Sequence record: KJ190157
DNA from: Escherichia phage vB_EcoS_FFH_1
Direction: 5' to 3' (one strand)
DNA length: 64,000 nt
The notes beneath the pieces are model-generated. The model was not told the origin of the DNA and ran no database searches. It saw nothing but the letters and a program-made list of their open reading frames with translations. A program made the translations under genes and the position numbers. Below, piece after piece: positions 975 to 42,888 of this stretch. How positions within the stretch are numbered: position 1 is the stretch's first letter; each line of letters opens with the position of its first letter.

Positions 975-1051
975 TGGCGCGACCGATGGGATTTGAACCC
1001 ACATTCTCTCCCGTGACAGGGGAGTACCATTACCAAGCCAGCCCCGGTCGC
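975..1051 (-). tRNA. tRNA-Asp (anticodon GTC), CCA encoded
   Basis: Manual fold: 7 bp acceptor GCGACCG/CGGTCGC, anticodon loop CTGTCAC, T-arm GTGGG-TTCAAAT-CCCAT. Confidence 0.8.
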
Positions 1052-1060
1052 ATAATTCAT

Positions 1061-1246
1061 TTACTCAGCTTTGAGTTTTTCAATAGCTGCATTAAGTTCT
1101 TTAAGAAACTCTTTTCGTACATTAAGACGATTGAGACTTACTAGTATATCGTGTTTAAGTTCTTCGATGTATTTCTTTTCAACTTCAATATTGTTGATAG
1201 TGCTATCACGATGAACTTCTAGCTGCGCAATTACATTCTTGGACAT
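1061..1246 (-). CDS. Hypothetical protein (61 aa)
   Basis: Short ORF between tRNA genes. Confidence 0.35.
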   Translation of the reverse strand: MSKNVIAQLEVHRDSTINNIEVEKKYIEELKHDILVSLNRLNVRKEFLKELNAAIEKLKAE

Positions 1247-1348
1247 GCTTGTTTCCTCAGTTATTAATGAAAATGGTATCTGTGGCTGAATTCGATGTCA
1301 GCAATGATAGCTGGTTGGCTACCGGTTTACTTAACTCTACACAGAATT

Positions 1349-1431
1349 TGGCGGGCCGTGTAGGATTCGAACCTACGTTGTCTTTCGACATGGATTAACA
1401 GTCCACCGCCAAACCGCTTGGCTAACGACCC
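1349..1431 (-). tRNA. tRNA-Asn (anticodon GTT) with an atypical 13 nt variable arm
   Basis: Acceptor GGGTCGT/ACGGCCC, anticodon stem-loop GTGGA-CTGTTAA-TCCAT, T-arm GTAGG-TTCGAAT-CCTAC, CCA encoded; extra hairpin TGTC-GAAA-GACA in the variable region. Confidence 0.55.
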
Positions 1432-1583
1432 TAAATTTATATTGCTGACTAGGATTTTCACCTAGACGGAGTTAGCACCGTAGCGTGTAGCGGCATACCT
1501 CTCCAAACCGTGCCTCATCTTTCAATTACGGAGACAGTGTTCCTACGCGTGCCTGAATTGATTCAACAATTCTTCCAGCAAAT

Positions 1584-1659
1584 TGGACGACCGCATGAGA
1601 TTTGAACTCACATAAAAAGGATTTGCAATCCTTCGCCTAAGCCCTTCAGCCAACGGTCG
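1584..1659 (-). tRNA. tRNA-Cys (anticodon GCA), CCA encoded
   Basis: Acceptor CGACCGT/GCGGTCG, anticodon arm AAGGA-TTGCAAA-TCCTT, T-arm GTGAG-TTCAAAT-CTCAT. Confidence 0.75.
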
Positions 1660-1707
1660 GTTTATCTTGTTCTGTCATGTTGCTTCTCCAGTTCAATTTA
1701 TGTAATT

Positions 1708-1736
1708 ATTATACAGAACTTTTGGAAACTAAGCAA
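1708..1736 (-). promoter_or_regulatory. Conserved early promoter, positioned to drive the downstream tRNA genes
   Basis: Minus strand reads TTGCTT-17 nt-TATAAT (plus aagcaa 1731-1736, attata 1708-1713). Confidence 0.55.
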
Positions 1737-2016
1737 CTACATTTTTTAAGAATTTGATGCCTTTCTTTTTCTTCTTATATTTCCACGTTAATGGATTCTG
1801 TCGATTATGAACGCTTGAGATCTTTGTCTCGTCAAAGTTCTTCAATATCATGTAATCACAGGATAATTGTTCTAGTAGAATGTGATCACCGTCAAAAGCG
1901 TATACATAAGGCTGTTGACTAACACGATAATGATAGACTTTGTTAATTCTACGTTTCAGCGACTTATCAGCGCAGTAAATAAAGAAGTTTTCAGGATGCA
2001 TCAGCAGCTCCTTCAA
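1729..2016 (-). CDS. Hypothetical protein (95 aa, lysine-rich C-terminus)
   Basis: ORF; no recognisable motif. Confidence 0.4.
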   Translation of the reverse strand: MKELLMHPENFFIYCADKSLKRRINKVYHYRVSQQPYVYAFDGDHILLEQLSCDYMILKNFDETKISSVHNRQNPLTWKYKKKKKGIKFLKNVVA

Positions 2017-2018
2017 TT

Positions 2019-2093
2019 TGGTGCACCCTGTTCGTATCGAACGAACCTCTCAAGCTCTTCAGGCAAGCGCTAATCCATCTCAGCTAAAGGTGC
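2019..2093 (-). tRNA. Probable tRNA-Phe (anticodon GAA); anticodon stem imperfect
   Basis: Acceptor GCACCTT/AGGGTGC, loop CTGAAGA, T-arm GTTCG-TTCGATA-CGAAC, CCA encoded; only 3 of 5 anticodon-stem pairs. Confidence 0.5.
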
Positions 2094-2099
2094 AAATTT

Positions 2100-2176
2100 T
2101 GGCAAACCTACTAGGACTCGAACCTAGACCGTACGGTTTTGGAGACCGACATGCTGTCCAGTAACACTCTAGGAAT
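2100..2176 (-). tRNA. Possible tRNA-Trp (anticodon CCA); acceptor stem has two mismatches
   Basis: T-arm CTAGG-TTCGAGT-CCTAG, anticodon loop CTCCAAA, CCA encoded; T-T mismatches in acceptor stem as read. Confidence 0.4.
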
Positions 2177-2184
2177 GCAGAAAT

Positions 2185-2261
2185 TGGCGTCCTGTGCGGG
2201 GATCGAACCCGCAAATCCTACCTTGAAAGGGTAGTGACTTTACCAGTTTGTCTAACAGGAC
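2185..2261 (-). tRNA. tRNA-Glu (anticodon TTC), CCA encoded
   Basis: Perfect acceptor GTCCTGT/ACAGGAC, anticodon arm CTACC-CTTTCAA-GGTAG, T-arm GCGGG-TTCGATC-CCCGC. Confidence 0.8.
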
Positions 2262-2268
2262 TTAAATT

Positions 2269-2359
2269 TGGTGTTGGATGATGGAGTCGAACCACCCGAG
2301 ACCCTTCCGAGTCGGCAGATTTACAGTCTGCTTCGCTACCTCTACGATACTAATCCAAC
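2269..2359 (-). tRNA. tRNA-Tyr (anticodon GTA), long variable arm, CCA encoded
   Basis: Perfect acceptor GTTGGAT/ATCCAAC, anticodon arm GCAGA-CTGTAAA-TCTGC, T-arm GGTGG-TTCGACT-CCATC; 91 nt. Confidence 0.75.
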
Positions 2360-2489
2360 ATATTTAGAAGTATTCAAAAATTCTCATTTAAACACTTTTA
2401 AATATGTTTTCAAATTAGGTAACTATTATACCAAGTTTTAAGGCACTGAGCAAGTCAAATTTTAAAGAACTTGCTCAGTGCTATATTAG

Positions 2490-2765
2490 TTAGTCGAACT
2501 TAGGAGTGACAGTTAAGGAGAACGGAAGTTCGAAAACTTCTTCACCCTCATTACTAACGGTAACTACACGACCTTTAAGTTCAGACATTAAAATATCAAT
2601 ATCAGCTTTTGCATCTGGAGCCATGCCAGCTTCAATACATTTAGCTTTAACCTCCGGTAGAAGATCTACGTTATAGAGATAGAGCCACTCAATCTCACCT
2701 TCCCAGTCTTCCCAGGATTTGCAGATTGCACTTTCAATACCAGTTGCTGCAACACGATTTTGCAT
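2490..2765 (-). CDS. Hypothetical protein (91 aa)
   Basis: ORF; a long inverted-repeat hairpin lies just downstream at 2446-2482. Confidence 0.45.
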   Translation of the reverse strand: MQNRVAATGIESAICKSWEDWEGEIEWLYLYNVDLLPEVKAKCIEAGMAPDAKADIDILMSELKGRVVTVSNEGEEVFELPFSLTVTPKFD

Positions 2766-2855
2766 TCGTTAACTCCTTCATCAATTTATACAACTATTAT
2801 ATCAGAAATTTAAAGCAAAAGGCAAGTACATTTTTAAAAATTCTGTTTGGAGGAG

Positions 2856-3062
2856 CTAAACTCCAGATTCTTCAGCTAAGTCTAGGCTAATAAGAGTTAT
2901 AGCCATAATTGCTGCACCGTGTTCTTTTTCTCCGGTGTTTTTAGCAGAGTCTATAATAGTCTTAATCTGTTCGTAATAGCCTTTTACTTCTTGTTCAATA
3001 CCTGCCTCGGCTATCATGCCTTTAGTCATGATTCGTTGCATAGTAATTTCACGGTTAGCCAT
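2856..3062 (-). CDS. Hypothetical protein (68 aa)
   Basis: ORF. Confidence 0.4.
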   Translation of the reverse strand: MANREITMQRIMTKGMIAEAGIEQEVKGYYEQIKTIIDSAKNTGEKEHGAAIMAITLISLDLAEESGV

Positions 3063-3222
3063 GATGTTTCTCCAGCTTCATTTTTAATAGTTTACAAATG
3101 AAATCAACGTCTTCATCTGTACCTAGATCTCTATCTTCAAGAGTTGCCTTGAAGTTTTTAGTCAATTCCATGAGGATAACTTCTCTAGAACGACGTGTTG
3201 GCGGAGGTGGATGTCTATACAT
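3055..3222 (-). CDS. Hypothetical small protein (55 aa, MYRHPPPPTRR...), below the ORF-track cutoff
   Basis: Hand translation; ATG at 3222-3220 preceded by AAGGAAATAAG; its stop overlaps the start of the next gene. Confidence 0.3.
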   Translation of the reverse strand: MYRHPPPPTRRSREVILMELTKNFKATLEDRDLGTDEDVDFICKLLKMKLEKHHG

Positions 3223-3237
3223 CTTATTTCCTTAGTT

Positions 3238-3314
3238 TGGTAGGGGTGGTGGGATTCGAACCCACAAAACCTGAATTTTAAGTCCAGTACCTATGCCAAT
3301 TCGATTACACCCCC
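3238..3314 (-). tRNA. tRNA with anticodon TAA (Leu by anticodon) but a short class-I variable loop
   Basis: Acceptor GGGGGTG/CACCCCT, anticodon arm CTGGA-CTTAAAA-TTCAG, T-arm GTGGG-TTCGAAT-CCCAC, CCA encoded. Confidence 0.6.
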
Positions 3315-3321
3315 GTGTAGT

Positions 3322-3510
3322 TTAGTCAATTACTTTTGAGGCTTCAAGGTAGTCGATATAGTGTATGTTTTCTACCGTAATCATATAATCTGCCACTTTA
3401 TCCATAGCTTGGGCTTCAGAGGTAGCTCTGGCTAACCTATATCCTTTTTTATATTCATCCGGGTATTCTCTATCTTGGATAAACACAACATAAACTATAT
3501 ATAGATCCAT
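3322..3510 (-). CDS. Hypothetical protein (62 aa)
   Basis: ORF. Confidence 0.4.
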   Translation of the reverse strand: MDLYIVYVVFIQDREYPDEYKKGYRLARATSEAQAMDKVADYMITVENIHYIDYLEASKVID

Positions 3511-3529
3511 TTGTGACCTCTATTTAATT

Positions 3530-3607
3530 TGGTGGCTCCCCGAGGATTCGAACCTACGTACCTTCCGGTTATGAGCCGGGTGCTCATACCATATGAGCTT
3601 GAGAACC
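3530..3607 (-). tRNA. tRNA with anticodon CAT (Met, fMet or Ile2 type); weak T-stem
   Basis: Anticodon loop CTCATAA, D-arm GCTC...GAGC, acceptor GGTTCTC/GGGAGCC with G-U pairs, CCA encoded. Confidence 0.55.
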
Positions 3608-3613
3608 AGAATT

Positions 3614-3702
3614 TGGCGGAAGAAGCGGGAATCGAACCCACAAGGCTATATTTCAAACCGACAGATTAGCAATCTGCTGCAATACCGTTATGCTATTCTT
3701 CC
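3614..3702 (-). tRNA. tRNA-Ser (anticodon GCT), long variable arm, CCA encoded
   Basis: Perfect acceptor GGAAGAA/TTCTTCC, anticodon loop TTGCTAA, T-arm GTGGG-TTCGATT-CCCGC; 89 nt. Confidence 0.75.
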
Positions 3703-3723
3703 GAATTTATAAGATATATTATA

Positions 3724-4245
3724 TTAGAAATTTAGCTTCATAGCAAGAAAATTTTTCAAGTTTTCGGTAGACATCTCATCCACATCTACGGGAGAAACAA
3801 AGCCGTTTAATTTTCTAGCAAATTTTTCACCCGCAGGATCATTGTCCCCAACAGCTACCAATTTAAAAGGTAGTAATTTCAGTTGCTTTAATAACGCTTT
3901 TCCTGGAGAAGAACCCAACATTGCTAGGGCTGGATAACCAGCATTATGTAACGCAACTGCCTTAAATACAGATTCAGCAATCAATACTACTTTTTCATCT
4001 CCATTGAGAGTTTCTAGTCCCCATACACACTGGGTAGTAGAATAAGTAAAGTATTTAGCTTCAAAGGGGCACTTACCATGACCTTTTGGAGCAGAAGGAT
4101 TATAAGTTTGATAGCCCCTCAACATCCCGGAGAAGTCATACAACGGGACTGTTAGCCATCCTTCCGGACTTAACCAGCAATGATATTTATCTGTATCAAA
4201 TCCTCTAGATAAGAGGTGCTGTGTTAGCTCATCAACATTCATATT
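3724..4245 (-). CDS. Toprim-domain protein (DnaG-type fold), about 173 aa
   Basis: Conserved glutamate in LIAESVF and the acidic motif VGDNDPAGE; start taken at the internal ATG (4245) with RBS GAAAGAGGAA, because the longer ORF would overlap the promoter at 4273-4301. Confidence 0.55.
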   Translation of the reverse strand, partial: NMNVDELTQHLLSRGFDTDKYHCWLSPEGWLTVPLYDFSGMLRGYQTYNPSAPKGHGKCPFEAKYFTYSTTQCVWGLETLNGDEKVVLIAESVFKAVALHNAGYPALAMLGSSPGKALLKQLKLLPFKLVAVGDNDPAGEKFARKLNGFVSPVDVDEMSTENLKNFLAMKLNF

Positions 4246-4272
4246 TGGTTCCTCTTTCAAATTTATAGATAT

Positions 4273-4301
4273 ATTATACAGAGAATTTAGCATTCAAGCA
4301 A
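4273..4301 (-). promoter_or_regulatory. Conserved early promoter (TTGCTT-17-TATAAT)
   Basis: Plus attata 4273-4278 and aagcaa 4296-4301. Confidence 0.6.
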
Positions 4302-4417
4302 TCAAATTTTTTAACTTTTTAGAGGAAAATCATAGGGCACTTAAGGATAGCAGATAAGTGGTGAGGACCAAAATTTGTGACCCCACTAAAAATCCTGGGG
4401 CAATTTTTAAAGACCCC

Positions 4418-4446
4418 TTGACATTTTCGCTGGGGTAGTGTAAAGT
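4418..4446 (+). promoter_or_regulatory. Sigma70-type promoter with consensus -35 TTGACA (spacer 17, -10 TAAAGT)
   Basis: ttgacattttcgc at 4418-4430; the same 13-mer recurs at 33016; drives the antisense plus-strand cassette. Confidence 0.45.
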
Positions 4447-4509
4447 ATATGTTATGGATGAGTGATCAAATAGACACACATTTTCTATATACTAGGAGGT
4501 GTCAAAAAA

Positions 4510-5492
4510 TGACAGAAGAAGTAACTAAGAGTCCTGAGACCGTCGCTAGCGTTGCAGCAGAATTGCACCGTCACGAGGAATCAGATAAGAAAAAGTGGGA
4601 GAAGGTCAGAGCCTACGAAGAAAAACATCGTGAACACGATGATAAAGAAGATGATGATGAACATTGTCATAAATATGGAAAACATAAAATGCAAGAACCA
4701 GTAAACGTATTCACTAGTGGCTTCCCTGGCCTACTGGGTGGTTATCCAGCAAACGCAAGTGCTTTCGGTGGTGAAGGTATGGGACTATTCGGAGCTATCC
4801 TAATCGGTGCTCTATTAACAGGCGGATTCGGTGGTTTCGGTGGATTCGGCGGACGTGGTGTAGTTGGTGAAGGTACCGCAGTTGATGCAGTACTTCAGAA
4901 CCAAGATACCGCTAGTATTCTAGCAGCTATTAACACTACTCGTACAGAAGCTAACCAGGGTACTGGAGCTGTTTTAAGCGCAGTTAACAATGGTTTTAGC
5001 CAGACATCCCAAAACCAGAGCCGTGATACTCAGTCTGTACTGACTACGATCTATGGTACAGGTGCTAATCTGTCTAATCAGATCTGTCAGGAAACTCGCA
5101 ACGTTATTCAGGGTCAGTTCGATCTTTCTCGCCAGATTGATCAATCTTTCGCAGCTAATCAGATAGCTCGTGCACAAGATAAGTTTGATTCTGCACAGAT
5201 CGCTTTCCAGCAGACTTTACAAACTAATAACCAGTTTGCCGCTGTTCAGGCTCAGATGTGTGCTAATCAGAACTCTCTGGAACGTCAGATCGCTGAATGT
5301 TGCTGTGAACTTCAGACTGCGATCGCTGGTGTAACTACTGCGCGTATCCAGGATGAGTTAGATGCATGTCGTCTACGTGAAGCAATCGCTGCGGGTAACG
5401 GTGCTAACGGTCAGGTAATTAATCAAATCGCTGTAAGTCTTGGTGCTATAACTCAGACTCTGGCTGGTCTGCAGGCTAAACTGCCGGCTTAA
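4510..5492 (+). CDS. Low-complexity membrane protein: charged N-terminus, one hydrophobic helix followed by GGFGGFGGFGG, then an N/Q/T/S/A-rich C-terminal region
   Basis: Start taken at the ATG after GGAGG (4510); codon usage biased to GGT/GCT/CGT/CTG unlike neighbouring AT-rich genes; opposite strand to flanking genes. Confidence 0.5.
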
Positions 5493-5513
5493 TATTAAGG
5501 GGAGGAGCCCATT

Positions 5514-5930
5514 ATGAGTAAATATGGTTTTGTAAATAACGGACTTAATCAAAGTATGGGCTCCCAGCAGCCCCTGCCTGGTCTGGATAACCCCTACTTA
5601 CAACAATTGCAACAGCGTTTAGCAGAAGCGCAACAGATGCAGCAACAACTCCAGCAAAACCCTGGAAGTGTGAGTCCTATGCAAATGATGCAGCAAATGA
5701 GCGGGCAGTCGCAAATGCCTCAACAAATGCAGCAACAGGTGCCTCAGCAGCAAGTTCAGCAACAAACCCAACAACCGCAGGTTTCTGCGGAAGGACAGGC
5801 AGTACTAGCCCTTTTCGAAGACTTCGCAAAGACAGAGGATGGGAAACAGCTTGTATCACTTATGGGTAAGTTTAATAGCTTCTGCCAAAGCCAAGTTGCA
5901 AAAGCTCAAAATGGTGGTAATAACTCCTAA
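5514..5930 (+). CDS. Glutamine-rich low-complexity protein (138 aa)
   Basis: RBS GGGGAGGAG upstream; roughly 40 percent Q in the central region. Confidence 0.5.
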   Translation: MSKYGFVNNGLNQSMGSQQPLPGLDNPYLQQLQQRLAEAQQMQQQLQQNPGSVSPMQMMQQMSGQSQMPQQMQQQVPQQQVQQQTQQPQVSAEGQAVLALFEDFAKTEDGKQLVSLMGKFNSFCQSQVAKAQNGGNNS

Positions 5931-5939
5931 GGAGAAATT

Positions 5940-6134
5940 ATGTGTTGCAGAAAACCTGTTTCGTGCTGCCCAATGCCTGTAGCACGTTGTTGCTCTCCAG
6001 CAATGTTTACACAAATACCGGCGTTCAATCCCTTTGCCTTTAAGCCTACTCTTATCCTGCCCCCTAGAGTAGATTTTCAGTCAAGATTGGCCTCCCGTAT
6101 GGGTGGTTGCTGTACACCGAGAGTGTGGTTCTGA
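5940..6134 (+). CDS. Small cysteine-rich protein (64 aa; CC pairs)
   Basis: RBS AAGGAGAAA 5 nt upstream of ATG; followed by an intrinsic terminator. Confidence 0.4.
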   Translation: MCCRKPVSCCPMPVARCCSPAMFTQIPAFNPFAFKPTLILPPRVDFQSRLASRMGGCCTPRVWF

Positions 6135-6150
6135 AGAACCAAACAATAAA

Positions 6151-6186
6151 GCCCCTAGTCGAAAGACTTAGGGGCTTTTCTGTATT
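6151..6186 (+). terminator. Intrinsic terminator ending the plus-strand cassette
   Basis: GC hairpin gcccctag...ctaggggc followed by a T-run. Confidence 0.6.
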
Positions 6187-6190
6187 TAAG

Positions 6191-6230
6191 ATAAAAGAAA
6201 AGCCCTGCGCTCTCCAGGGAACGCAGGGCT
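6191..6230 (-). terminator. Intrinsic terminator downstream of the SPFH gene
   Basis: Hairpin agccctgcg...cgcagggct with an A-run on plus (U-run on the minus transcript). Confidence 0.5.
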
Positions 6231-6254
6231 TACTTCAGATGTTACATGCGGATA

Positions 6255-7202
6255 TTATTTATTACGCATATCCATGATCATTTGACCATCGTAGCCAGTA
6301 CCTACCACAGTCTGTGGTACACCACCTTGATATTTCTGAGCACGAATCATTTCGACTTCCAGTTGTTTCCAACGAATCATCTCAGGAGTAATGGTACGTT
6401 GCAGTGCGGCGTTAGCTTCAGCTTCTTTCTTAGCTGCGTACAGTTTAGCATCTGCGTCACGTTCATTAGCGATAGCTTGGTTGTTGCGAGCTTCACGATC
6501 TGCTTCTGCTTGTTTAACTTTTTGCTGTGCTTCCTGTTCAACACGAGCTAATTCAGCTTTAGCAGCATTAACCTGTTCTTCACGAACTTTGGTATTCTGT
6601 ACCTGTTCCATGATTACCGGTGGCAAAGTAATATCCTGAAGGAATACCTGCTTAACTGTGTAACCATATGGGCGTGCATACTCTTCAACTTCCTGTTGAA
6701 TTGCAGTTTGCAATTGAGCCTGAATTTTAGCATCAAACAAATCTTGTGCTTTAGGTACAGACTTACCAAACTCACGAATAGTAGACAGTAATTTTTCAGT
6801 TACATATTTGTCTAACGCTTGATCCTGAGTACCTGCGTTAATACGGTTAATTGGTGCCTTAGAACCATCAAACTGCAACATAACAGTCAGGTCAACAGTG
6901 GATTTAAACTTATCCTGGCTAGGAACCTGAAGTTTATCTAATTTTACAGCAATATCTTTTGTACTAAAAGTGTCGAAAGATGCAAATGGGTTTACAAGAT
7001 GGAAACCTGGTAATACTGGGTTAGGATCTACTTTACCCAGAAATGTTTGGGTTTTAACCGTACCATCAGAAACAATAGTATATGAATTAAAGGCTAGAAT
7101 CAAGCCTGCTAAACCAACTACAGCACCAATACCCCAACGTTTAATAGTACGAATTACTTTCTGCTCAGAAGTCAGTTCTTTCATATTTTTAGTATTAAAC
7201 AT
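6255..7202 (-). CDS. SPFH/band-7 (prohibitin/HflK-HflC-like) membrane protein
   Basis: N-terminal transmembrane helix, SPFH-like core, long coiled-coil A/E/Q/K-rich C-terminus; RBS AAGGAA. Confidence 0.65.
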   Translation of the reverse strand: MFNTKNMKELTSEQKVIRTIKRWGIGAVVGLAGLILAFNSYTIVSDGTVKTQTFLGKVDPNPVLPGFHLVNPFASFDTFSTKDIAVKLDKLQVPSQDKFKSTVDLTVMLQFDGSKAPINRINAGTQDQALDKYVTEKLLSTIREFGKSVPKAQDLFDAKIQAQLQTAIQQEVEEYARPYGYTVKQVFLQDITLPPVIMEQVQNTKVREEQVNAAKAELARVEQEAQQKVKQAEADREARNNQAIANERDADAKLYAAKKEAEANAALQRTITPEMIRWKQLEVEMIRAQKYQGGVPQTVVGTGYDGQMIMDMRNK

Positions 7203-7236
7203 ATATTTCCTTTGTTTTAGTTACAGTTAATAAAAT

Positions 7237-7311
7237 TGGCCGAGGTGACAGGATTCGAACCTGCATAAAGGAATTTAGAAGACTCCTGCCTCTCCCTTAG
7301 ACTACACCCCG
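7237..7311 (-). tRNA. tRNA-Arg (anticodon TCT), CCA encoded
   Basis: Acceptor CGGGGTG/CACCTCG, anticodon arm GGAGT-CTTCTAA-ATTCC, T-arm GCAGG-TTCGAAT-CCTGT. Confidence 0.7.
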
Positions 7312-30803: not shown

Positions 30804-31214
30804 ATGACTACTCCAACTCAGTGGACTGATGAACTGTTCGAAAAAATGTCTTCCGAATACGTTGCTCGTATGGAGCAATTCCCAGAGGATGAACGTCCGG
30901 GTGTTAGCATGGAAATTGTTAGCGAAATTGCCCAGGAAAACGGTGTAACTCCGAACGGTTTTCGTATGAAGCTGACTAAAGCAGGTTTGTATATTAAGAA
31001 AGCTGCTGGTTCTACTTCTAAATCTAGCGCATCTACTGGAGAAAAAGCTTCTGGTGGTTCTCGTACCTCCAAAGCTCAAGCCCATGCCGACCTTCGCGCA
31101 GCATTCTCTGACGCTGGCTTAGCACCAGATTTTCTGGATGATGCAATTATCGACAAACTGACCGGTAAAGCGGCTGCTCATCTGGCAGAAGCAATCCGAG
31201 CTATCACTAAGTAA
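30804..31214 (+). CDS. Hypothetical protein (136 aa) with host-like codon usage
   Basis: RBS AAGGAAA; Ser/Ala/Gly-rich linker. Confidence 0.5.
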   Translation: MTTPTQWTDELFEKMSSEYVARMEQFPEDERPGVSMEIVSEIAQENGVTPNGFRMKLTKAGLYIKKAAGSTSKSSASTGEKASGGSRTSKAQAHADLRAAFSDAGLAPDFLDDAIIDKLTGKAAAHLAEAIRAITK

Positions 31215-32965: not shown

Positions 32966-33015
32966 TACATAACCCTTTGCTACCCATCTACCATATCGGA
33001 ATTATAAAGTGGTTA

Positions 33016-33044
33016 TTGACATTTTCGCCGCTTAGGTATATACT
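33016..33044 (+). promoter_or_regulatory. Sigma70-type promoter TTGACA-17-TATACT inside the ligase split
   Basis: Shares the 13-mer ttgacattttcgc with the promoter at 4418. Confidence 0.45.
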
Positions 33045-33108
33045 ATTATCATTCAGTTGAGGGATAGAAAGTTATGGCGAGGGTAAGCAAAGTTAGTTAA
33101 AATTGTAG

Positions 33109-33137
33109 TTGCTAAATGCTTAAATACTTGCTATAAT
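33109..33137 (+). promoter_or_regulatory. Conserved early promoter upstream of the ligase C-terminal ORF
   Basis: TTGCTA-17-TATAAT. Confidence 0.6.
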
Positions 33138-33164
33138 ATTTATATAAATTGATAAGGAAGAAAT

Positions 33165-33947
33165 TTGATGAAAATCGAAATTCCAACACAATGTCCCTCT
33201 TGTGGTTCTAAGCTAGATCTTGTCAACGGACAATTATTCTGTCGTAATAAGTCCAACTGTCCAGCGCAATCAAGCAAGTTAATTGAGAACTTCTGTTCAA
33301 AAATGAAGTTAAAGGGCTTTGGCCCAAAAACTATTGAGAAGCTGGAGCTGACGAAGATTTCAGAACTATTTTACCTAACCGAAGAAGATTTGGTTAGAGT
33401 CGTGGGTAGCAAGGTTGCCGCTAAGTTAATTAGCGAATTAAATACTAAAGTTCGCGGAGACATTGACTTTGGTTCAGTTCTCGGTTCTTTAGGAATCCCT
33501 CTAATTGGAGAGGTTGCAGCAAAGAAATTATCCCAAAATTGCACTAGCTTCCACGATGTGAAGGCTGACGGCAAGGCTGGAGAAAATTACAAAGCCTGGC
33601 TAAATTCCCCACAAGGCAAGGATGTTATTGAACTACCGTGGAAATTTTCAACTGGTATTAAGGGCACTAAAGCTGACGTCATCATTACAGATGAATTAGT
33701 TGCCCAGCCAAATGGAATCGCGGTATGTATTACCGGATCTTTGCAAGATTTTGCAAATCGAACGGATGCAACAAACTATTTAGAAGGTCTAGGGTATACG
33801 GTTAAGAAATCCGTTACTAAAGACGTCAAATACCTAATCTGTGAGGATGAATCAAAACGTTCTTCCTCATCTTATAAGAAAGCCGAAACGAATGGGATAG
33901 AAATCCTGTCGATTAAAGAACTATTGGAGAAAAATAATAATGTCTAA
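33165..33947 (+). CDS. NAD-dependent DNA ligase, C-terminal part (Zn-finger, HhH, BRCT-like)
   Basis: Cys4 zinc finger CPSCGS...CRNKSNCPAQ, HhH-like FGPKTIEKL, C-terminal BRCT-like region. Confidence 0.7.
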   Translation: MMKIEIPTQCPSCGSKLDLVNGQLFCRNKSNCPAQSSKLIENFCSKMKLKGFGPKTIEKLELTKISELFYLTEEDLVRVVGSKVAAKLISELNTKVRGDIDFGSVLGSLGIPLIGEVAAKKLSQNCTSFHDVKADGKAGENYKAWLNSPQGKDVIELPWKFSTGIKGTKADVIITDELVAQPNGIAVCITGSLQDFANRTDATNYLEGLGYTVKKSVTKDVKYLICEDESKRSSSSYKKAETNGIEILSIKELLEKNNNV

Positions 33948-34707
33948 ACTGAACTGGAACGTAGAAGGTGTAACCGAGTCTCTGAAAGCAAAAGCCACTG
34001 CTCTGGGTGTTGCTGTAATCTCTCAAGAACAAGTAGCTGCTATCGCTGCTGAACTGGCTGCTGAAACTGGTAAAGACGTTACAGCTCGCTCTGTTGGCTC
34101 TAAACTGCGTAAAGAAGGTTTTGAAGTACAGAAAGCTAACGAAGTACAGAAATCCCCGTGGACTCCTGAGCAGGAAGCTGAACTGGTTGATTTCCTGAAC
34201 GCTCATGCTGGTCAGTATACCTATGCTGAAATCGCTGCTGCTGTAGCTGGTGGTCAGTTCGGTGCTAAACAGGTACAGGGTAAGATCCTGAGTCTGGAAA
34301 TGACCGCTTCTGTTAAACCAACTGAAAAAGCTGCTGCTGTTCGTTCCTTCACTCCTGATGAAGAAACTGATTTTGTTAATCAGGTTGTTGCTGGTGCTAC
34401 TATTGAAGCTATCGCTGCTCACTTCGGTCGTAATATCAAGCAGATCCGTGGTAAAGCTCTGAGCCTGCTTCGTGAAGGTCGTATCGCTGCTATGCCGGTA
34501 CAGGAAACCTCAAGTGCTAAAACTCGTGAAGATCTGTTAGAAGGTCTGGATCTGGCTAACATGACTGTTGCTGAGATCGCTGAGAAAACTGGTAAATCTG
34601 AGCGCGGTGTTAAATCTATGCTGTCTCGTCGTGGTCTGGTTGCTAAGGACTATGATGGTGCTGCTAAGCGTGCTAAACTGGATGCAAAAGCTGCGGCTGC
34701 TGAATAA
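33940..34707 (+). CDS. Protein with three tandem helix-turn-helix-like repeats and host-like codon usage
   Basis: Repeats TYAEIAAAVAG...LSLEM, TIEAIAAHFGRN...LSLLREG, TVAEIAEKTGKS...LSRRGL; strong GCT/CTG/GGT codon bias. Confidence 0.5.
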   Translation: MSKLNWNVEGVTESLKAKATALGVAVISQEQVAAIAAELAAETGKDVTARSVGSKLRKEGFEVQKANEVQKSPWTPEQEAELVDFLNAHAGQYTYAEIAAAVAGGQFGAKQVQGKILSLEMTASVKPTEKAAAVRSFTPDEETDFVNQVVAGATIEAIAAHFGRNIKQIRGKALSLLREGRIAAMPVQETSSAKTREDLLEGLDLANMTVAEIAEKTGKSERGVKSMLSRRGLVAKDYDGAAKRAKLDAKAAAAE

Positions 34708-34738
34708 TCTGGTAAATTAAACCTAAGGGGAGGGGGCT

Positions 34739-36262
34739 ATGCTCCTTCCCCTTTTTGCATTTAGAAGGCACGAAAGCGTGCAAAGGAGAATGACCTTGTT
34801 TAACGTGCAAGCTGTAGTGTTGAAGATGCTTCTAGCTTCCGAACAGAAGCAGATAGCATTGGAAACATTCTCAAAACTGCATAAAGATCATTTTAATGAC
34901 GCTTTCTCCTCAATTTACCAAGCCGTCCAGAATTATTATAAAAAATATAACACAATGCCGTCCATTGACGCACTGATGCTTGAGGCTAATAGGAACGCCC
35001 GCCTTTCTCAAGCTCTAGTCGTTTTAGCTAACACTCAAATTCCAGAAGTTAGCATGGAACAGGCACTTGAAGTCCTAGAGGCCGAGTATACACAGGATTT
35101 ATTCCTGAAGCTTCTAGAAACAGACGTGCTTCAAGATTTAACAATGCTGGATCAGGGAGAAATTCTTAACCGAGTTGCCTCCCTTCACTTAAAATTAGAA
35201 GAGAAAGTAACGAATACTGGAAAAGTATTCAACGCAGATAACATGCGTATTTTCCAGAGAGAAGAAGATACCAAACTGAACTTAATCGCTCTTGGTATTT
35301 GTAATGAGTTCGACGCTCAAATTGGTTTAGCTCGCACAGAAACGTTACTGCTTGGTGGTTGGCGTGGTACTGGTAAATCCATTATCTGTTCAAACATACA
35401 GGTTCAGCAATATTTGAATGGAGATATTGCTCCATACTTCTCAATTGAGATGAAAGAACATGAAGTATTTAGACGTAATCTAGCCATGTTAGCTGGTGTA
35501 TCCGCACTAGCAATGCGTAATAATACTCTAGAAGGTGCAGCTCTGTTGAGATTAGCCAGAACTAGAGCTAGGATGTTTAACGGTGGTGAAGAGCTTTTCG
35601 ATAACTTCGTTAAACAGTACACAATGGCTAAGATGAGTGATTTCTACGATATGGAGAGTAAGCTAATAGAAGGATATGAGCTACATACTCCTATGATTAT
35701 TGTTTATGATCCTGAGCTGTCTATTACAACAGTTGACGTAGAATTAAATAAATTAGTTGCTAGATATGGAGATAAAGTTACAGTAGCTTTACTGGACTAT
35801 ATTAACCAAACCCGACTTCCAGACTCTAAAACCATTGATATGTATGACTGGAAAGAACAGATGGTTGTTAGCTCGTCTTTCAAATCTATCTGCCAGAAAC
35901 ATAACGTGGCTGGTGTAGCTCCTTACCAGATCGATCAAGATGGTAGAACACGTATGTCAAAGGGGATTCTTGATTCCGCAGACATGGCTGCTAATCTTAA
36001 TGCTGCAAAAGCTGATAATGGTCAAGGTGCTATTATGTTTGACTTCGTTAAGACTCGTTCTTCTGATAGCGTGAAGTTTATGCCTAAGATGAACTGGGAA
36101 ACTCTGCGAATGGATAATACAACTAACCTAGCAATGGAAGATATATCTCAAATGGAAGCTGAGTTCGTTATCCCTATTGAGAAGGATAAGCCGGCTCAAC
36201 CTAAACGTGCTAAGAAAGACAAAACTGAAAATTCAACAGGTGAACAGGCCAGCGATATATGA
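34739..36262 (+). CDS. DnaB-like replicative helicase (RecA-fold ATPase); start codon uncertain
   Basis: Walker A-like LLLGGWRGTGKS; sits directly upstream of primase; possible TTG start near 34797. Confidence 0.55.
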   Translation: MLLPLFAFRRHESVQRRMTLFNVQAVVLKMLLASEQKQIALETFSKLHKDHFNDAFSSIYQAVQNYYKKYNTMPSIDALMLEANRNARLSQALVVLANTQIPEVSMEQALEVLEAEYTQDLFLKLLETDVLQDLTMLDQGEILNRVASLHLKLEEKVTNTGKVFNADNMRIFQREEDTKLNLIALGICNEFDAQIGLARTETLLLGGWRGTGKSIICSNIQVQQYLNGDIAPYFSIEMKEHEVFRRNLAMLAGVSALAMRNNTLEGAALLRLARTRARMFNGGEELFDNFVKQYTMAKMSDFYDMESKLIEGYELHTPMIIVYDPELSITTVDVELNKLVARYGDKVTVALLDYINQTRLPDSKTIDMYDWKEQMVVSSSFKSICQKHNVAGVAPYQIDQDGRTRMSKGILDSADMAANLNAAKADNGQGAIMFDFVKTRSSDSVKFMPKMNWETLRMDNTTNLAMEDISQMEAEFVIPIEKDKPAQPKRAKKDKTENSTGEQASDI

Positions 36263-41837: not shown

Positions 41838-42122
41838 ATGCTTACAGAGCCTGATGCTCACCAATTATTGGTAGGTTCCTCATTCATTTTGAATGAATCA
41901 ACAATAGTTGATAATCCAAATAAATTGTCTAATAGACAACTGGCAGAATATCTAGGAATTTTAAGTCTACGAAATTATGCCGAATACAAGTTTACAAACG
42001 ATCCTAGTTTGGACATACAATATGTTCCAGTATGGATACCACGTTTAGTAATCGACACTAACCCACTAATCGCAATTAACAAATCGAAATTAATCTTTAA
42101 AGAGGAAATAAAATATGGCTAA
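41838..42122 (+). CDS. Hypothetical protein (94 aa)
   Basis: ORF with weak RBS. Confidence 0.35.
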   Translation: MLTEPDAHQLLVGSSFILNESTIVDNPNKLSNRQLAEYLGILSLRNYAEYKFTNDPSLDIQYVPVWIPRLVIDTNPLIAINKSKLIFKEEIKYG

Positions 42123-42888
42123 GTCTTGGGGCGAAACTACTGGCGGTTCTAACGATAAAATCGAATTCCTGAAGTTCAACAACGGTATCACTCGTGTTCG
42201 TATCGTTTCTGGTGTTCTTCCACGTTATGTCTATTGGCTGACTAATAAAGAGGGTAGCGTAGCTCCTTTCGAATGTCTTCGTTTCAACCGTGACAAAGAG
42301 AGCTTTGTTCGTGGTAAAGCTGATCCGGTTCATGAGATGGGCTTCTTTGAGAAGGAGCTGGATAAAGATGGTAATCGGGTTCCGCTGAAACCGAAGAAAA
42401 ACTATATCGCTTTTGTTATTGACCGTTCTGATAACAAACTGAAAGTAATGGAAGTCAAGGCTACTATTCTGAAAGGCATCCAGTCTATCATGAAGCAGTT
42501 GAACCTGGCAACTCCGTTTGATATTGATATTTCTATCGAGAAAAAAGGTAAAGGTTTCGATACTGAGTATGATGTACAGCAGATTGCTGCTATGCAGTTC
42601 CAGATTAAGCTGCAAGATCCTAACAGTGCGGAATCTAAGCAATATGCTGCGGATGTAGATCTGATCGGTGAAGCTATGTGTGATGAAGATGGCGACATCA
42701 TTAAGTTCGAAAAAGTTCCTTCTCTGGAACAAACCTATCCGGTTCCTACCTATGAAGAGCAGAAAGAAGCAATTCTAGCCTTCATGGAAGGTCGTGAGAA
42801 TAAAGATGATGATGCCAAATCTGGTAATAGCAATGCAGGTTCCCAGAAAGGTATTGACTCAGAAGCTGCAAGCGATCTGGACGACTAA
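42115..42888 (+). CDS. Probable single-stranded DNA-binding protein
   Basis: Acidic C-terminal tail ending DSEAASDLDD; host-like codon usage; position within the replication module. Confidence 0.5.
   Translation: MAKSWGETTGGSNDKIEFLKFNNGITRVRIVSGVLPRYVYWLTNKEGSVAPFECLRFNRDKESFVRGKADPVHEMGFFEKELDKDGNRVPLKPKKNYIAFVIDRSDNKLKVMEVKATILKGIQSIMKQLNLATPFDIDISIEKKGKGFDTEYDVQQIAAMQFQIKLQDPNSAESKQYAADVDLIGEAMCDEDGDIIKFEKVPSLEQTYPVPTYEEQKEAILAFMEGRENKDDDAKSGNSNAGSQKGIDSEAASDLDD

What the first reader, a model, noticed from the sequence alone, without database searches (positions are those of the whole stretch)
33940..34707. Triple-repeat helix-turn-helix protein with host-like codon usage
Three internal repeats of about 60 aa each end in an HTH-like segment, and the gene uses highly expressed E. 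coli-type codons unlike its neighbours. That suggests an abundant DNA-binding or transcription-modulating protein, possibly horizontally acquired.
Basis: seen in the sequence. Interest (0 to 1): 0.5.

Follow-up and report, generated by a model that had tools for sequence, protein, structure and literature searches.

The report
Phage T5 D5 DNA-binding protein gene
This gene is the long-known D5 gene of a T5-like phage, an early DNA-binding protein built from four (not three) helix-turn-helix modules; its host-optimal codons most likely reflect selection for very high expression, not gene transfer from the host.

Summary
Window 33940-34707 (+) encodes a 255-aa protein that is 253/255 identical to D5 of phage T5 (YP_006946.1). 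T5's record annotates D5 as a DNA-binding protein required for replication and late transcription.

- Codon bias is real and extreme. CAI is 0.73-0.79, the highest of 61 ORFs and within the range of E. coli ribosomal-protein genes. Recoding the same protein with the window's codon usage gives 0.325 +/- 0.026.
- The ~60-aa repeats are real, but there are four. Repeats 2 and 3 are clearly homologous (hhalign P 5e-9). Repeats 1 and 4 show up only with profiles and in the AlphaFold model: four three-helix bundles plus a C-terminal helix, pLDDT 90.

Horizontal acquisition is not supported.
- GC3 is phage-like (0.305, against 0.50 in E. coli).
- Homologues were found only in T5-like phages, always between ligB and the helicase.
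- Orthologues in Klebsiella, Proteus and Vibrio phages keep the bias.
- The D3 and SSB genes share it.

Verdict: a correctly spotted but already known gene. The four-module anatomy and the transcription unit are minor additions.

The parts
33016..33044 (+). Sigma-70 promoter-like site (TTGACA-17-TATACT) in the ligA-ligB spacer. It falls in the stretch that T5's record annotates as early promoter P-K28b.
   Evidence: The scan found 11 of 12 consensus matches. The spacer 32966-33170 is 100% identical to the T5 stretch annotated with P-K28b and P-K28a.
33109..33137 (+). Second promoter-like site (TTGCTA-17-TATAAT with a TG extension). It falls in the stretch annotated as T5 promoter P-K28a.
33165..33947 (+). 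ligB, the NAD-dependent DNA ligase subunit B and the upstream cistron of the same unit. T5 annotates the start at the ATG at 33168. Its stop overlaps the D5 start by 8 nt. CAI is only 0.238.
33926..33929 (+). Shine-Dalgarno GGAG, followed by an A-rich 10-nt spacer before the D5 ATG.
   Evidence: Read directly from the sequence.
33940..34707 (+). D5 coding sequence: 255 aa, 27.0 kDa, pI 6.8, 18% Ala.
   Evidence: 253/255 identical to T5 D5 YP_006946.1. PHROG 323 'transcriptional regulator, D5-like', E 1.9e-71. 98.8% nucleotide identity to annotated D5 genes.
33940..34149 (+). HTH repeat 1 (aa 1-70): helices 11-22, 29-43 and 49-58. Helix 3 reads ARSVGSKLRK, with R50, K55, L56 and R57 invariant.
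   Evidence: Weak PDB sequence hit to an engrailed homeodomain design, E 0.009.
34150..34338 (+). HTH repeat 2 (aa 71-133): helices 76-88, 95-101 and 109-118. It opens Myb-like (WTPEQEAEL). Helix 3 reads AKQVQGKILS, with Q113, G114, K115 and L117 invariant.
34339..34515 (+). HTH repeat 3 (aa 134-192): helices 139-150, 155-162 and 166-178. Helix 3 reads IKQIRGKALSLLR, with G171 and K172 invariant.
   Evidence: hhalign against repeat 2 gives P 4.7e-9. Pfam HTH_23, E 1e-4. Also.
34516..34656 (+). HTH repeat 4 (aa 193-239): helix 1 is degenerate, followed by helices 210-217 and 221-231. Helix 3 reads ERGVKSMLSRR, with G223, L228, R230 and R231 invariant.
   Evidence: Pfam Sigma70_r4_2 scores 29.1 bits, above the 25.7 cut-off, and matches 25 of 30 family members. 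Also.
34657..34704 (+). C-terminal Ala/Lys-rich helix (aa 240-255, GAAKRAKLDAKAAAAE). Its role is unknown; a part in self-association is only a guess.
   Evidence: The AF2 model has a helix at 240-254. Mean conservation is 0.68.
34725..34753 (+). Intrinsic terminator-like hairpin (13-bp stem with 8 G-C pairs, then a T run), 18 nt after the D5 stop. It ends the ligB-D5 unit.
   Evidence: RNA fold is -25.6 kcal/mol, z -2.66. A terminator is annotated at the same place in Klebsiella phage Sugarland.

Best explanation
The gene is D5 of a Tequintavirus (T5-like phage), an early protein that binds DNA.

Shown here:
- It is 99% identical to T5 D5.
- It consists of four tandem tri-helical helix-turn-helix modules of about 60 aa, joined by linkers that are conserved in sequence and almost free of indels, and it ends in an Ala/Lys-rich helix.
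- In every module the third helix carries the invariant basic and Gly-Lys residues. In HTH domains this is the recognition helix.
- The gene is the last cistron of a ligB-D5 unit. That unit starts at the two sites T5's record annotates as promoters P-K28b and P-K28a and ends at a strong hairpin terminator.
- Its codons are as host-optimal as those of E. coli ribosomal-protein genes.

Taken from published work on T5: D5 binds DNA and is needed for phage DNA replication, for late transcription and for shutting off earlier expression. A 2026 preprint shows that D5's HTH fold binds a retron msDNA stem-loop.

Inferred:
- The protein is made in stoichiometric amounts, like the phage SSB.
- Its four weakly specific HTH modules are flexible relative to each other when free. 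On duplex DNA they probably occupy successive major grooves, so that many copies coat the phage genome.
- This coating would change the template state: early promoters are silenced and replication and late transcription become possible.
- The codon bias is translational selection for fast, high-yield synthesis from host tRNAs. It is not a sign of foreign origin.
For: Identity.

Repeats and fold:
- hhalign and shuffle controls.
- AF2 model with pLDDT 90 but pTM 0.43, meaning confident domains with undefined mutual orientation.
- Pfam hits across 30 members: Sigma70_r4_2 in 25, HTH_23 in 18, Myb in 9, GcrA in 3.
- Helix 3 major-residue frequencies are 0.90, 0.85, 0.69 and 0.80, against 0.64 for the whole protein and 0.46-0.64 for helix 1.
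- The repeat is a unit of duplication: homologue P0121 carries an extra copy of repeat 2.

Expression:
- CAI and Nc.
- Promoters and terminator.
- The three top-CAI ORFs are D5, D3 (PHROG 'DNA binding protein') and the D11 SSB.
- The bias is conserved in orthologues: Sugarland CAI 0.685, rank 1 of 30; PM135 rank 1 by CAI; Vibrio phage River4 Nc 30.7, rank 1 of 37.

Function from the literature:
- T5 RefSeq note.
- McCorquodale 1979, cited in PMC12630848.
- PMC10194208.
- bioRxiv 10.64898/2026.07.11.737809.

From my own memory and not checked here: Rice et al. 1979 (J Biol Chem) purified D5 as an abundant, cooperatively binding double-stranded-DNA-binding protein of about 29 kDa.
Against: - No abundance measurement and no DNA-binding assay was available here.
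- The protein is nearly neutral (pI 6.8), unlike typical basic nucleoid proteins.
- Repeats 1 and 4 are not significant from the single sequence.
- The coating-and-switch step is inference. D5 could instead act at specific sites or through protein partners.
- The preprint reports free D5 as a 26-kDa monomer, and a viable escape phage with a W74 stop in D5. The latter sits uneasily with an essential structural role.
- No D5-specific Pfam or NCBIfam model matched, and no solved structure of D5 or a close relative was found.
Confidence: 0.8

Rival explanations
1. D5 is a sequence-specific late-gene transcription factor. In this reading it is a sigma-like or sigma-appropriating activator that reads late promoters with its HTH modules, rather than a general DNA-coating protein.
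For: - Repeat 4 passes the Pfam cut-off for Sigma70_r4_2 (29.1 against 25.7 bits) and does so in 25 of 30 members.
- Many records annotate the gene as 'transcription factor D5' or 'late gene transcription factor'.
- Remote relatives P0251 and P0242 fuse a GerE/sigma-r4-type HTH to D5-like repeats.
- Published genetics link D5 to late transcription.
Against: - There is no match to sigma region 2 or any core-binding region, even at E up to 10.
- Codon adaptation at the level of the phage SSB and of host ribosomal proteins suggests stoichiometric rather than regulatory amounts.
- D5 is also needed for replication.
- It binds an unrelated msDNA stem-loop, which speaks for low sequence specificity.
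Confidence: 0.12
2. D5 is mainly a replisome accessory factor. It would act on duplex or nicked DNA together with the neighbouring ligase, helicase, primase and polymerase, and its transcription effects would be secondary to blocked replication.
For: - The gene sits inside the replication module, co-transcribed with ligB and directly upstream of the helicase, primase and polymerase genes. This order is kept across three Demerecviridae lineages.
- D5 is required for replication.
- From memory, not checked here: Fujimura and Roop 1983 reported that D5 modulates T5 DNA polymerase on duplex templates in vitro.
Against: - No interaction domain or enzyme domain is detectable; the protein consists only of HTH modules.
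- This reading is not exclusive of the main explanation, because a coating protein would also affect the replisome.
Confidence: 0.06
3. The gene was recently acquired from the host or another bacterium, which would explain its host-like codons.
For: Only the high CAI itself.
Against: - GC3 is 0.305, equal to the phage background of 0.315, against 0.50-0.53 in E. coli.
- Of 185,579 species genomes, only 5 have hits, and all are MAG contigs with T5-like gene order. That scan used a single peptide pattern, so it is not exhaustive.
- A profile search of 1.84 billion representatives gave only 517 hits at E up to 0.001. The strongest are full-length D5-sized proteins and fragments; the few longer proteins I inspected, further down the list, are other HTH arrays.
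- Position and bias are conserved in phages of four host genera.
Confidence: 0.02

Closest known systems
Bacteriophage T5 D5 protein (T5.118, YP_006946.1; PHROG 323 'transcriptional regulator, D5-like')
   Same: 253/255 residues are identical. The length, the position between ligB and the D6 helicase, the upstream promoter region (100% identical) and the residues hit in published escape mutants (G53, W74, V149, G232) are all the same.
   Different: Two substitutions (A25D and A206V relative to T5). The rest of the window is closest to other Tequintavirus isolates, at 96-97% nucleotide identity.
Tri-helical HTH domains: GcrA DNA-binding domain, Myb/SANT repeats, sigma-70 region 4 and LuxR/GerE, resolvase and Tc3 HTH
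   Different: - Only repeat 4 reaches a Pfam gathering score.
- The three regularly spaced Trp of Myb repeats are absent.
- There is no sigma region 2 and no resolvase or transposase catalytic domain.
- Four modules sit in one chain with conserved linkers.
Phage phi29 protein p6 and SPO1 TF1 (abundant phage-encoded double-stranded-DNA-binding 'histone-like' proteins). This comparison rests on established knowledge and was not tested here.
   Same: All are early, very abundant phage proteins that bind duplex DNA with low sequence specificity. All influence both replication and the early-to-late transcription switch.
   Different: The folds are unrelated: p6 has its own fold, TF1 is HU-like, and D5 is a 4xHTH array. 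There is no sequence similarity. That D5 works in the same way is an inference.
Other tandem-HTH arrays (paired/Tc3 bipartite domains, SelB C-terminal four winged helices, poly-HTH proteins such as P0258 and P0245)
   Same: Several small HTH units are strung on one chain. These proteins appear as low-scoring matches to the D5 model or profile.
   Different: Global arrangement is not shared (TM 0.16-0.26). Only the D5 orthologue of a Vibrio phage matches globally (TM 0.67).

Membership tests
T5 D5 protein family (PHROG 323) | Full-length sequence homology to T5 D5 | tested here: met
   253/255 identical to YP_006946.1. PHROG 323 E 1.9e-71 over residues 1-253.
T5 D5 protein family (PHROG 323) | Position in the early replication module, between ligase subunit B and the replicative helicase | tested here: met
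   The order ligA-ligB-D5-D6-primase-pol is found in the window and in BF23, T5, Sugarland, PM135 and River4.
T5 D5 protein family (PHROG 323) | Binds double-stranded DNA; required for replication and late transcription | not testable with these tools
   Known only from the literature on T5. Here there is only the predicted HTH fold.
Tri-helical HTH DNA-binding domains (HTH clan) | Three-helix bundle with helix-turn-helix geometry | tested here: met
Tri-helical HTH DNA-binding domains (HTH clan) | Match to a curated HTH model above its gathering score | tested here: inconclusive
   Repeat 4 scores 29.1 bits for Sigma70_r4_2, above the 25.7 cut-off. Repeats 1-3 match HTH_33, Myb and HTH_23 only below their cut-offs. 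Other family members score better, for example HTH_23 at 2.9e-7 and Myb at 4.2e-6.
Sigma-70 family sigma factors | Region 2 (core binding and -10 recognition) together with region 4 | tested here: not met
   No Sigma70_r2 match at E up to 10. TIGR02937 scores 15 bits against a cut-off of 42.9.
Myb/SANT repeat proteins | Repeats of about 50 aa with three regularly spaced Trp (or aromatic) residues, passing the Myb_DNA-binding model | tested here: not met
   17.6 bits against a cut-off of 24.4, and only the first helix of repeat 2 matches. Each of repeats 1-3 has only a single opening aromatic (W6, W74, F137).
Host-derived (horizontally acquired) genes | Homologues in cellular chromosomes, and base composition unlike the rest of the phage | tested here: not met
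   Only mis-binned phage contigs were found. GC3 is 0.305 against a phage mean of 0.315 and 0.50 in E. coli.

The most novel reading that the evidence does not exclude
D5 may represent a distinct, structurally uncharacterised class of phage 'chromatin' protein. In this reading it is a near-neutral array of four tri-helical HTH modules with conserved linkers that polymerises along duplex DNA. By coating the phage genome it would act as the global switch from early transcription to replication and late transcription. Relatives would show the module number to be evolvable: five repeats in P0121 and P0194, and fusions to a GerE/sigma-r4-type HTH in P0251 and P0242. No D5-DNA complex or D5 structure has been solved, so the binding mode is open.
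Probability: 0.3. Interest if true: 0.45.

Novelty: already known. Interest (0 to 1): 0.2.

Why it matters
The gene itself is a textbook T5 early gene, so nothing new is discovered by finding it.

What the analysis adds is modest.
- It gives an explicit four-module HTH anatomy, with the conserved recognition helices mapped.
- It delimits the transcription unit: tandem P-K28 promoters, then ligB, D5 and a terminator.
- It shows that the extreme host-optimal codon usage is a conserved trait. The trait is shared with the other stoichiometric DNA-binding proteins of the phage (D3 and SSB), and points to translational selection rather than transfer.

This is useful for three groups. Annotators will find it relevant because records label the gene anything from 'hypothetical' to 'ssDNA-binding protein' or 'transposase'. 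People working on the retron that senses D5 can use the module map. It also serves as a caution against reading high CAI as evidence of foreign origin.

Tried and rejected
- A profile search of PDB sequences found no solved relative; the best hit was E 0.009 to a designed engrailed homeodomain.
- NCBIfam gave nothing above any cut-off.
- Tandem Repeats Finder found no DNA-level repeat of the ~180-nt period, only a 12-nt GCT-rich stretch. A recent duplication is therefore rejected.
- The consensus scan found no promoter-like site on the + strand inside ligB. I therefore did not propose a separate D5 promoter, though a weak or atypical one cannot be excluded.
- Single-sequence Smith-Waterman failed to support repeats 1 and 4. 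I accepted them only on the combined profile, structure and conservation evidence.
- Amino-acid composition as a cause of the high CAI was rejected by the recoding simulation.
- An error in my remembered weight table was ruled out by the empirical E. coli reference set.
- The classic D5 paper (PMC353123) is not held in the library. Statements on cooperative dsDNA binding and abundance rest on secondary citations and on my memory.
- The 169-aa antisense ORF at 33913-34422 was dismissed as a by-product of the biased sense codons.
Full report
**What is at the coordinates.** A 255-codon ORF occupies 33940-34707 on the + strand. Its DNA is 98.8% identical to genes annotated 'D5 protein' or 'transcription factor D5' in T5-like phages. 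511 phage records hold at least 80% of it. The protein is 253/255 identical to D5 of phage T5 (T5.118, YP_006946.1). That record notes it as a 'DNA-binding protein; required for DNA replication and late transcription; also is involved in shutoff of expression of ...'. PHROGs places it in family 323, 'transcriptional regulator, D5-like' (E 1.9e-71). The window as a whole is a Tequintavirus genome segment, 96-97% identical over 20 kb to several isolates. It carries a tRNA cluster and the early replication module in the order ligA, ligB, D5, D6 helicase, primase, polymerase.

**Codon usage.**
- With the Sharp-Li E. coli weights (recalled from memory), D5 has CAI 0.733. That is the highest of 61 non-overlapping ORFs, whose mean is 0.288 with sd 0.105.
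- I checked the recalled table against weights derived from 29 ribosomal-protein, EF-Tu, EF-G and rpoA genes of E. coli K-12 (locus L011). The two tables correlate at r = 0.98.
- With the empirical weights D5 scores 0.794. The window mean is 0.377 +/- 0.110, the E. coli reference genes average 0.681 (range 0.543-0.837), and the weakly expressed gsp genes average 0.332.
- Recoding the same amino-acid sequence 5000 times with the codon usage of the other 60 ORFs gives 0.325 +/- 0.026 (maximum 0.438). The observed value is therefore at z = 15.6.
- Wright's Nc is 30.3, the lowest of the 38 ORFs of at least 150 aa.
- The signature is the classical one: GCT, GGT, CGT, CTG, ATC, AAC, CAG, GAA and AAA are preferred. 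AGA, AGG, ATA, CTA and GGA are absent.

**Repeats.**
- From the single sequence, only segments 71-133 and 134-192 align significantly (Smith-Waterman 54, z 7.9, 0 of 2000 shuffles). Pairs 1-4 and 3-4 are marginal at about p 0.04.
- I aligned 30 homologues of 50-81% identity (alignment A1), cut the alignment into four column blocks and compared them with hhalign. Block 2 against block 3 gives P 4.7e-9. The other five pairs give P between 1.2e-2 and 7.6e-5.
- Every pair aligns the 'x-I-A-x-x-...-G-+-x-x-+-x-V/I-x-G/S-K-x-L' segments onto each other.
- All six pairs exceed the mean of 60 column-shuffled controls (z 3.1 to 15.9), although for pairs 1-2 and 2-4 one shuffle in 60 reached the observed score.
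- AlphaFold2 on A1 gives a confident model (mean pLDDT 90) with four three-helix units and a C-terminal helix. The helices are 11-22/29-43/49-58, 76-88/95-101/109-118, 139-150/155-162/166-178 and a degenerate helix 1 then 210-217/221-231, followed by helix 240-254. The pTM of 0.43 shows that the mutual arrangement of the units is not defined.
- There are therefore four repeats of about 60 aa, not three.
- No DNA-level repeat of that period exists, so the duplications are old.
- The unit is still evolutionarily mobile. Homologue P0121 (309 aa) carries two copies of repeat 2, and P0194 has five units.

**Fold and conserved surface.**
- Whole-chain Foldseek against the PDB finds nothing significant, as expected for flexible beads on a string.
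- In Pfam, repeat 4 passes the Sigma70_r4_2 cut-off (29.1 against 25.7 bits). Repeats 3, 2 and 1 give sub-threshold hits to HTH_23, Myb_DNA-binding and HTH_33.
- Across the 30 members, Sigma70_r4_2 matches 25, HTH_23 18, Myb 9 and GcrA 3.
- No D5-specific Pfam or NCBIfam model matched, and no solved structure of a relative was found.
- In every repeat the third helix is the best conserved element. Major-residue frequencies are 0.90, 0.85, 0.69 and 0.80, against 0.64 for the whole protein and 0.46-0.64 for the first helices. It holds the invariant residues R50, K55, L56, R57 / Q113, G114, K115, L117 / G171, K172 / G223, L228, R230, R231. This is the pattern expected if all four recognition helices contact DNA.
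- The linkers are also conserved and almost free of indels.

**Transcription unit.**
- The 205-bp ligA-ligB spacer contains two near-consensus sigma-70 sites, at 33016-33044 (TTGACA-17-TATACT) and 33109-33137 (TTGCTA-17-TG-TATAAT).
- The spacer is 100% identical to the T5 stretch annotated as promoters P-K28b and P-K28a.
- The scan found no + strand promoter-like site inside ligB.
- The D5 ATG overlaps the ligB stop by 8 nt. It is preceded by GGAG and an A-rich spacer.
- Eighteen bases after the D5 stop lies a 13-bp G+C-rich hairpin followed by a T run, at 34725-34753 (-25.6 kcal/mol). Klebsiella phage Sugarland has a terminator annotated at the same place.
- D5 is thus the last cistron of a short ligB-D5 unit driven by two promoter-like sites. 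Within one mRNA, ligB has CAI 0.238 and D5 0.733. This suggests that D5 output is boosted at the level of translation.

**Is it foreign?** No.
- GC3 of D5 is 0.305. The mean of the window's ORFs is 0.315, and E. coli genes, highly or weakly expressed, have 0.50-0.53. Only the choice among synonymous codons is host-like, not the base composition.
- tblastn finds the protein in 901 phage records, with hosts named as Escherichia, Salmonella, Klebsiella, Proteus, Vibrio, Aeromonas, Pectobacterium and others.
- The order ligB-D5-helicase-primase-polymerase is kept in Sugarlandvirus, Novosibvirus and Thalassavirus.
- A scan of one genome for each of 185,579 prokaryotic species found five loci. All are on MAG contigs assigned to unrelated phyla, and all carry the same T5-like gene order, so they are mis-binned phage DNA. 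The scan used a single peptide pattern and is not exhaustive.
- A profile search of 1.84 billion representative proteins gave only 517 hits at E up to 0.001. Most of the 150 best listed are D5-sized proteins or short fragments. The few longer ones I inspected are other HTH arrays.
- The bias is kept in orthologues. Sugarland has CAI 0.685 and Nc 35.0, rank 1 of 30. Proteus phage PM135 is rank 1 by CAI and rank 2 by Nc. Vibrio phage River4 has Nc 30.7, rank 1 of 37.
- In the window, the next two ORFs by CAI are D3 (PHROG 'DNA binding protein') and D11 (single-strand DNA-binding protein).
- A trait shared by the stoichiometric DNA-binding proteins and maintained across hosts fits translational selection for high output better than transfer.

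**What is known about D5.**
- McCorquodale et al. [quoted passage not shown] It is cited in PMC12630848.
- A July 2026 preprint (10.64898/2026.07.11.737809) identifies T5 D5 as the trigger of retron-Kva2. It describes D5 as 255 residues, 26 kDa by mass photometry, and mildly toxic on its own. Its HTH fold is modelled as binding the msDNA stem-loop in mimicry of the retron's winged-helix protein.
- The escape phage in that preprint carried G53D, W74*, V149I and G232D. All four residues are present in the window protein. G53 lies in helix 3 of repeat 1, and G232 lies directly after helix 3 of repeat 4.
- From my own memory, not verifiable in the held library: Rice et al. 1979 (J Biol Chem) purified D5 as an abundant, cooperatively binding dsDNA-binding protein of about 29 kDa. 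Fujimura and Roop 1983 showed effects on T5 DNA polymerase in vitro.

**How it most likely works.**
- Shown: identity with D5, four HTH modules with conserved recognition helices, conserved linkers, the promoter-to-terminator unit, and extreme codon adaptation.
- Published: DNA binding, and a requirement for replication, late transcription and shutoff.
- Inferred: D5 is produced in amounts comparable to the SSB. Its four low-specificity modules lie along successive major grooves of duplex DNA. Coating of the phage genome changes the template so that early promoters are shut off and replication and late transcription proceed. Functionally this resembles phi29 p6 or SPO1 TF1, although the fold is unrelated.
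- Rivals are a site-specific late activator or sigma-like factor (no region 2; the inferred abundance argues against it) and a dedicated replisome accessory (not exclusive of the main model). Host origin is effectively excluded.

**Verdict.** In detail: the codon bias is fully confirmed and the repeats are confirmed but number four. The functional guess is right, and the horizontal-transfer suggestion is not supported. The object is a gene known since the 1970s and annotated in hundreds of genomes, so novelty is 'already known' and interest is low. What remains open is the actual DNA-binding mode of the 4xHTH array and how it switches transcription. Neither has been solved structurally.

Noticed in passing
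window 34725-34790: The ATG at 34739, used as the start of the D6 helicase by mechanical ORF calling and by the BF23 annotation (and, by its 31-nt gap after D5, apparently by T5's), lies in the loop of the terminator hairpin after D5. The ATG at 34790 follows AAGGAG. It gives an N-terminus (MTLFNVQAVVLKMLLAS) that matches the annotated start of the Sugarland orthologue (MYNVQAVVLKMLLAS). The helicase is probably annotated 17 codons too long.
   Followed up: partly
window 30804-31214 (D3) and 42115-42888 (D11 SSB): After D5, these two ORFs have the highest codon adaptation in the window: CAI 0.57 and 0.54 with recalled weights, 0.65 each with empirical weights. Both fall in PHROG families of DNA-binding proteins. 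Their orthologues in a Vibrio phage are also at the top. All three stoichiometric DNA-binding proteins share the trait.
   Followed up: partly
window 32966-33170: The ligA-ligB spacer is 100% identical to the T5 stretch annotated as promoters P-K28b and P-K28a. The split NAD-dependent ligase is thus interrupted by a promoter region. In Proteus and Vibrio relatives, extra genes (DprA-like and hypothetical) sit between the two ligase halves.
   Followed up: partly
proteins P0121, P0194, P0251, P0242, P0258: Relatives vary in module number. P0121 has a duplicated repeat 2 and P0194 has five units. Remote hits P0251 and P0242 combine a GerE/sigma-r4-type HTH with four or five D5-repeat-3-like HTH units. 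P0258 is an array of about ten resolvase-type HTH units. Their genomic contexts were not examined.
   Followed up: no
window 33913-34422 (- strand): A 169-aa Ser-rich antisense ORF overlaps D5. It is most simply a by-product of the GCT/CTG-biased sense codons, which leave the opposite strand free of stop codons.
   Followed up: no
(public records): DNA or protein 98-99% identical to this D5 is filed under 'Listeria phage LM 4-11-1', Campylobacter phage records and partial 'Enterococcus faecalis' proteins. These are probably contamination or mislabelling. Annotations of the same gene range from 'hypothetical protein' through 'late gene transcription factor' to 'single stranded DNA-binding protein' and 'transposase'.
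   Followed up: no
window 34159-34161 (codon W74 of D5): The retron preprint reports a plaque-forming T5 escape phage with a stop at W74 of D5, along with three missense changes. D5 is described as required for replication. Either the stock was mixed, the stop is suppressed, or D5 is less essential than believed.
   Followed up: no
window 975-7311 (- strand): A cluster of ten tRNA genes (Asp, Asn, Cys, Phe, Trp, Glu, Tyr, Leu-UAA, Ser-GCU, Arg-UCU). Leu-UAA and Arg-UCU read TTA and AGA, which are frequent in the other ORFs but nearly absent from D5 (one TTA, no AGA).
   Followed up: partly
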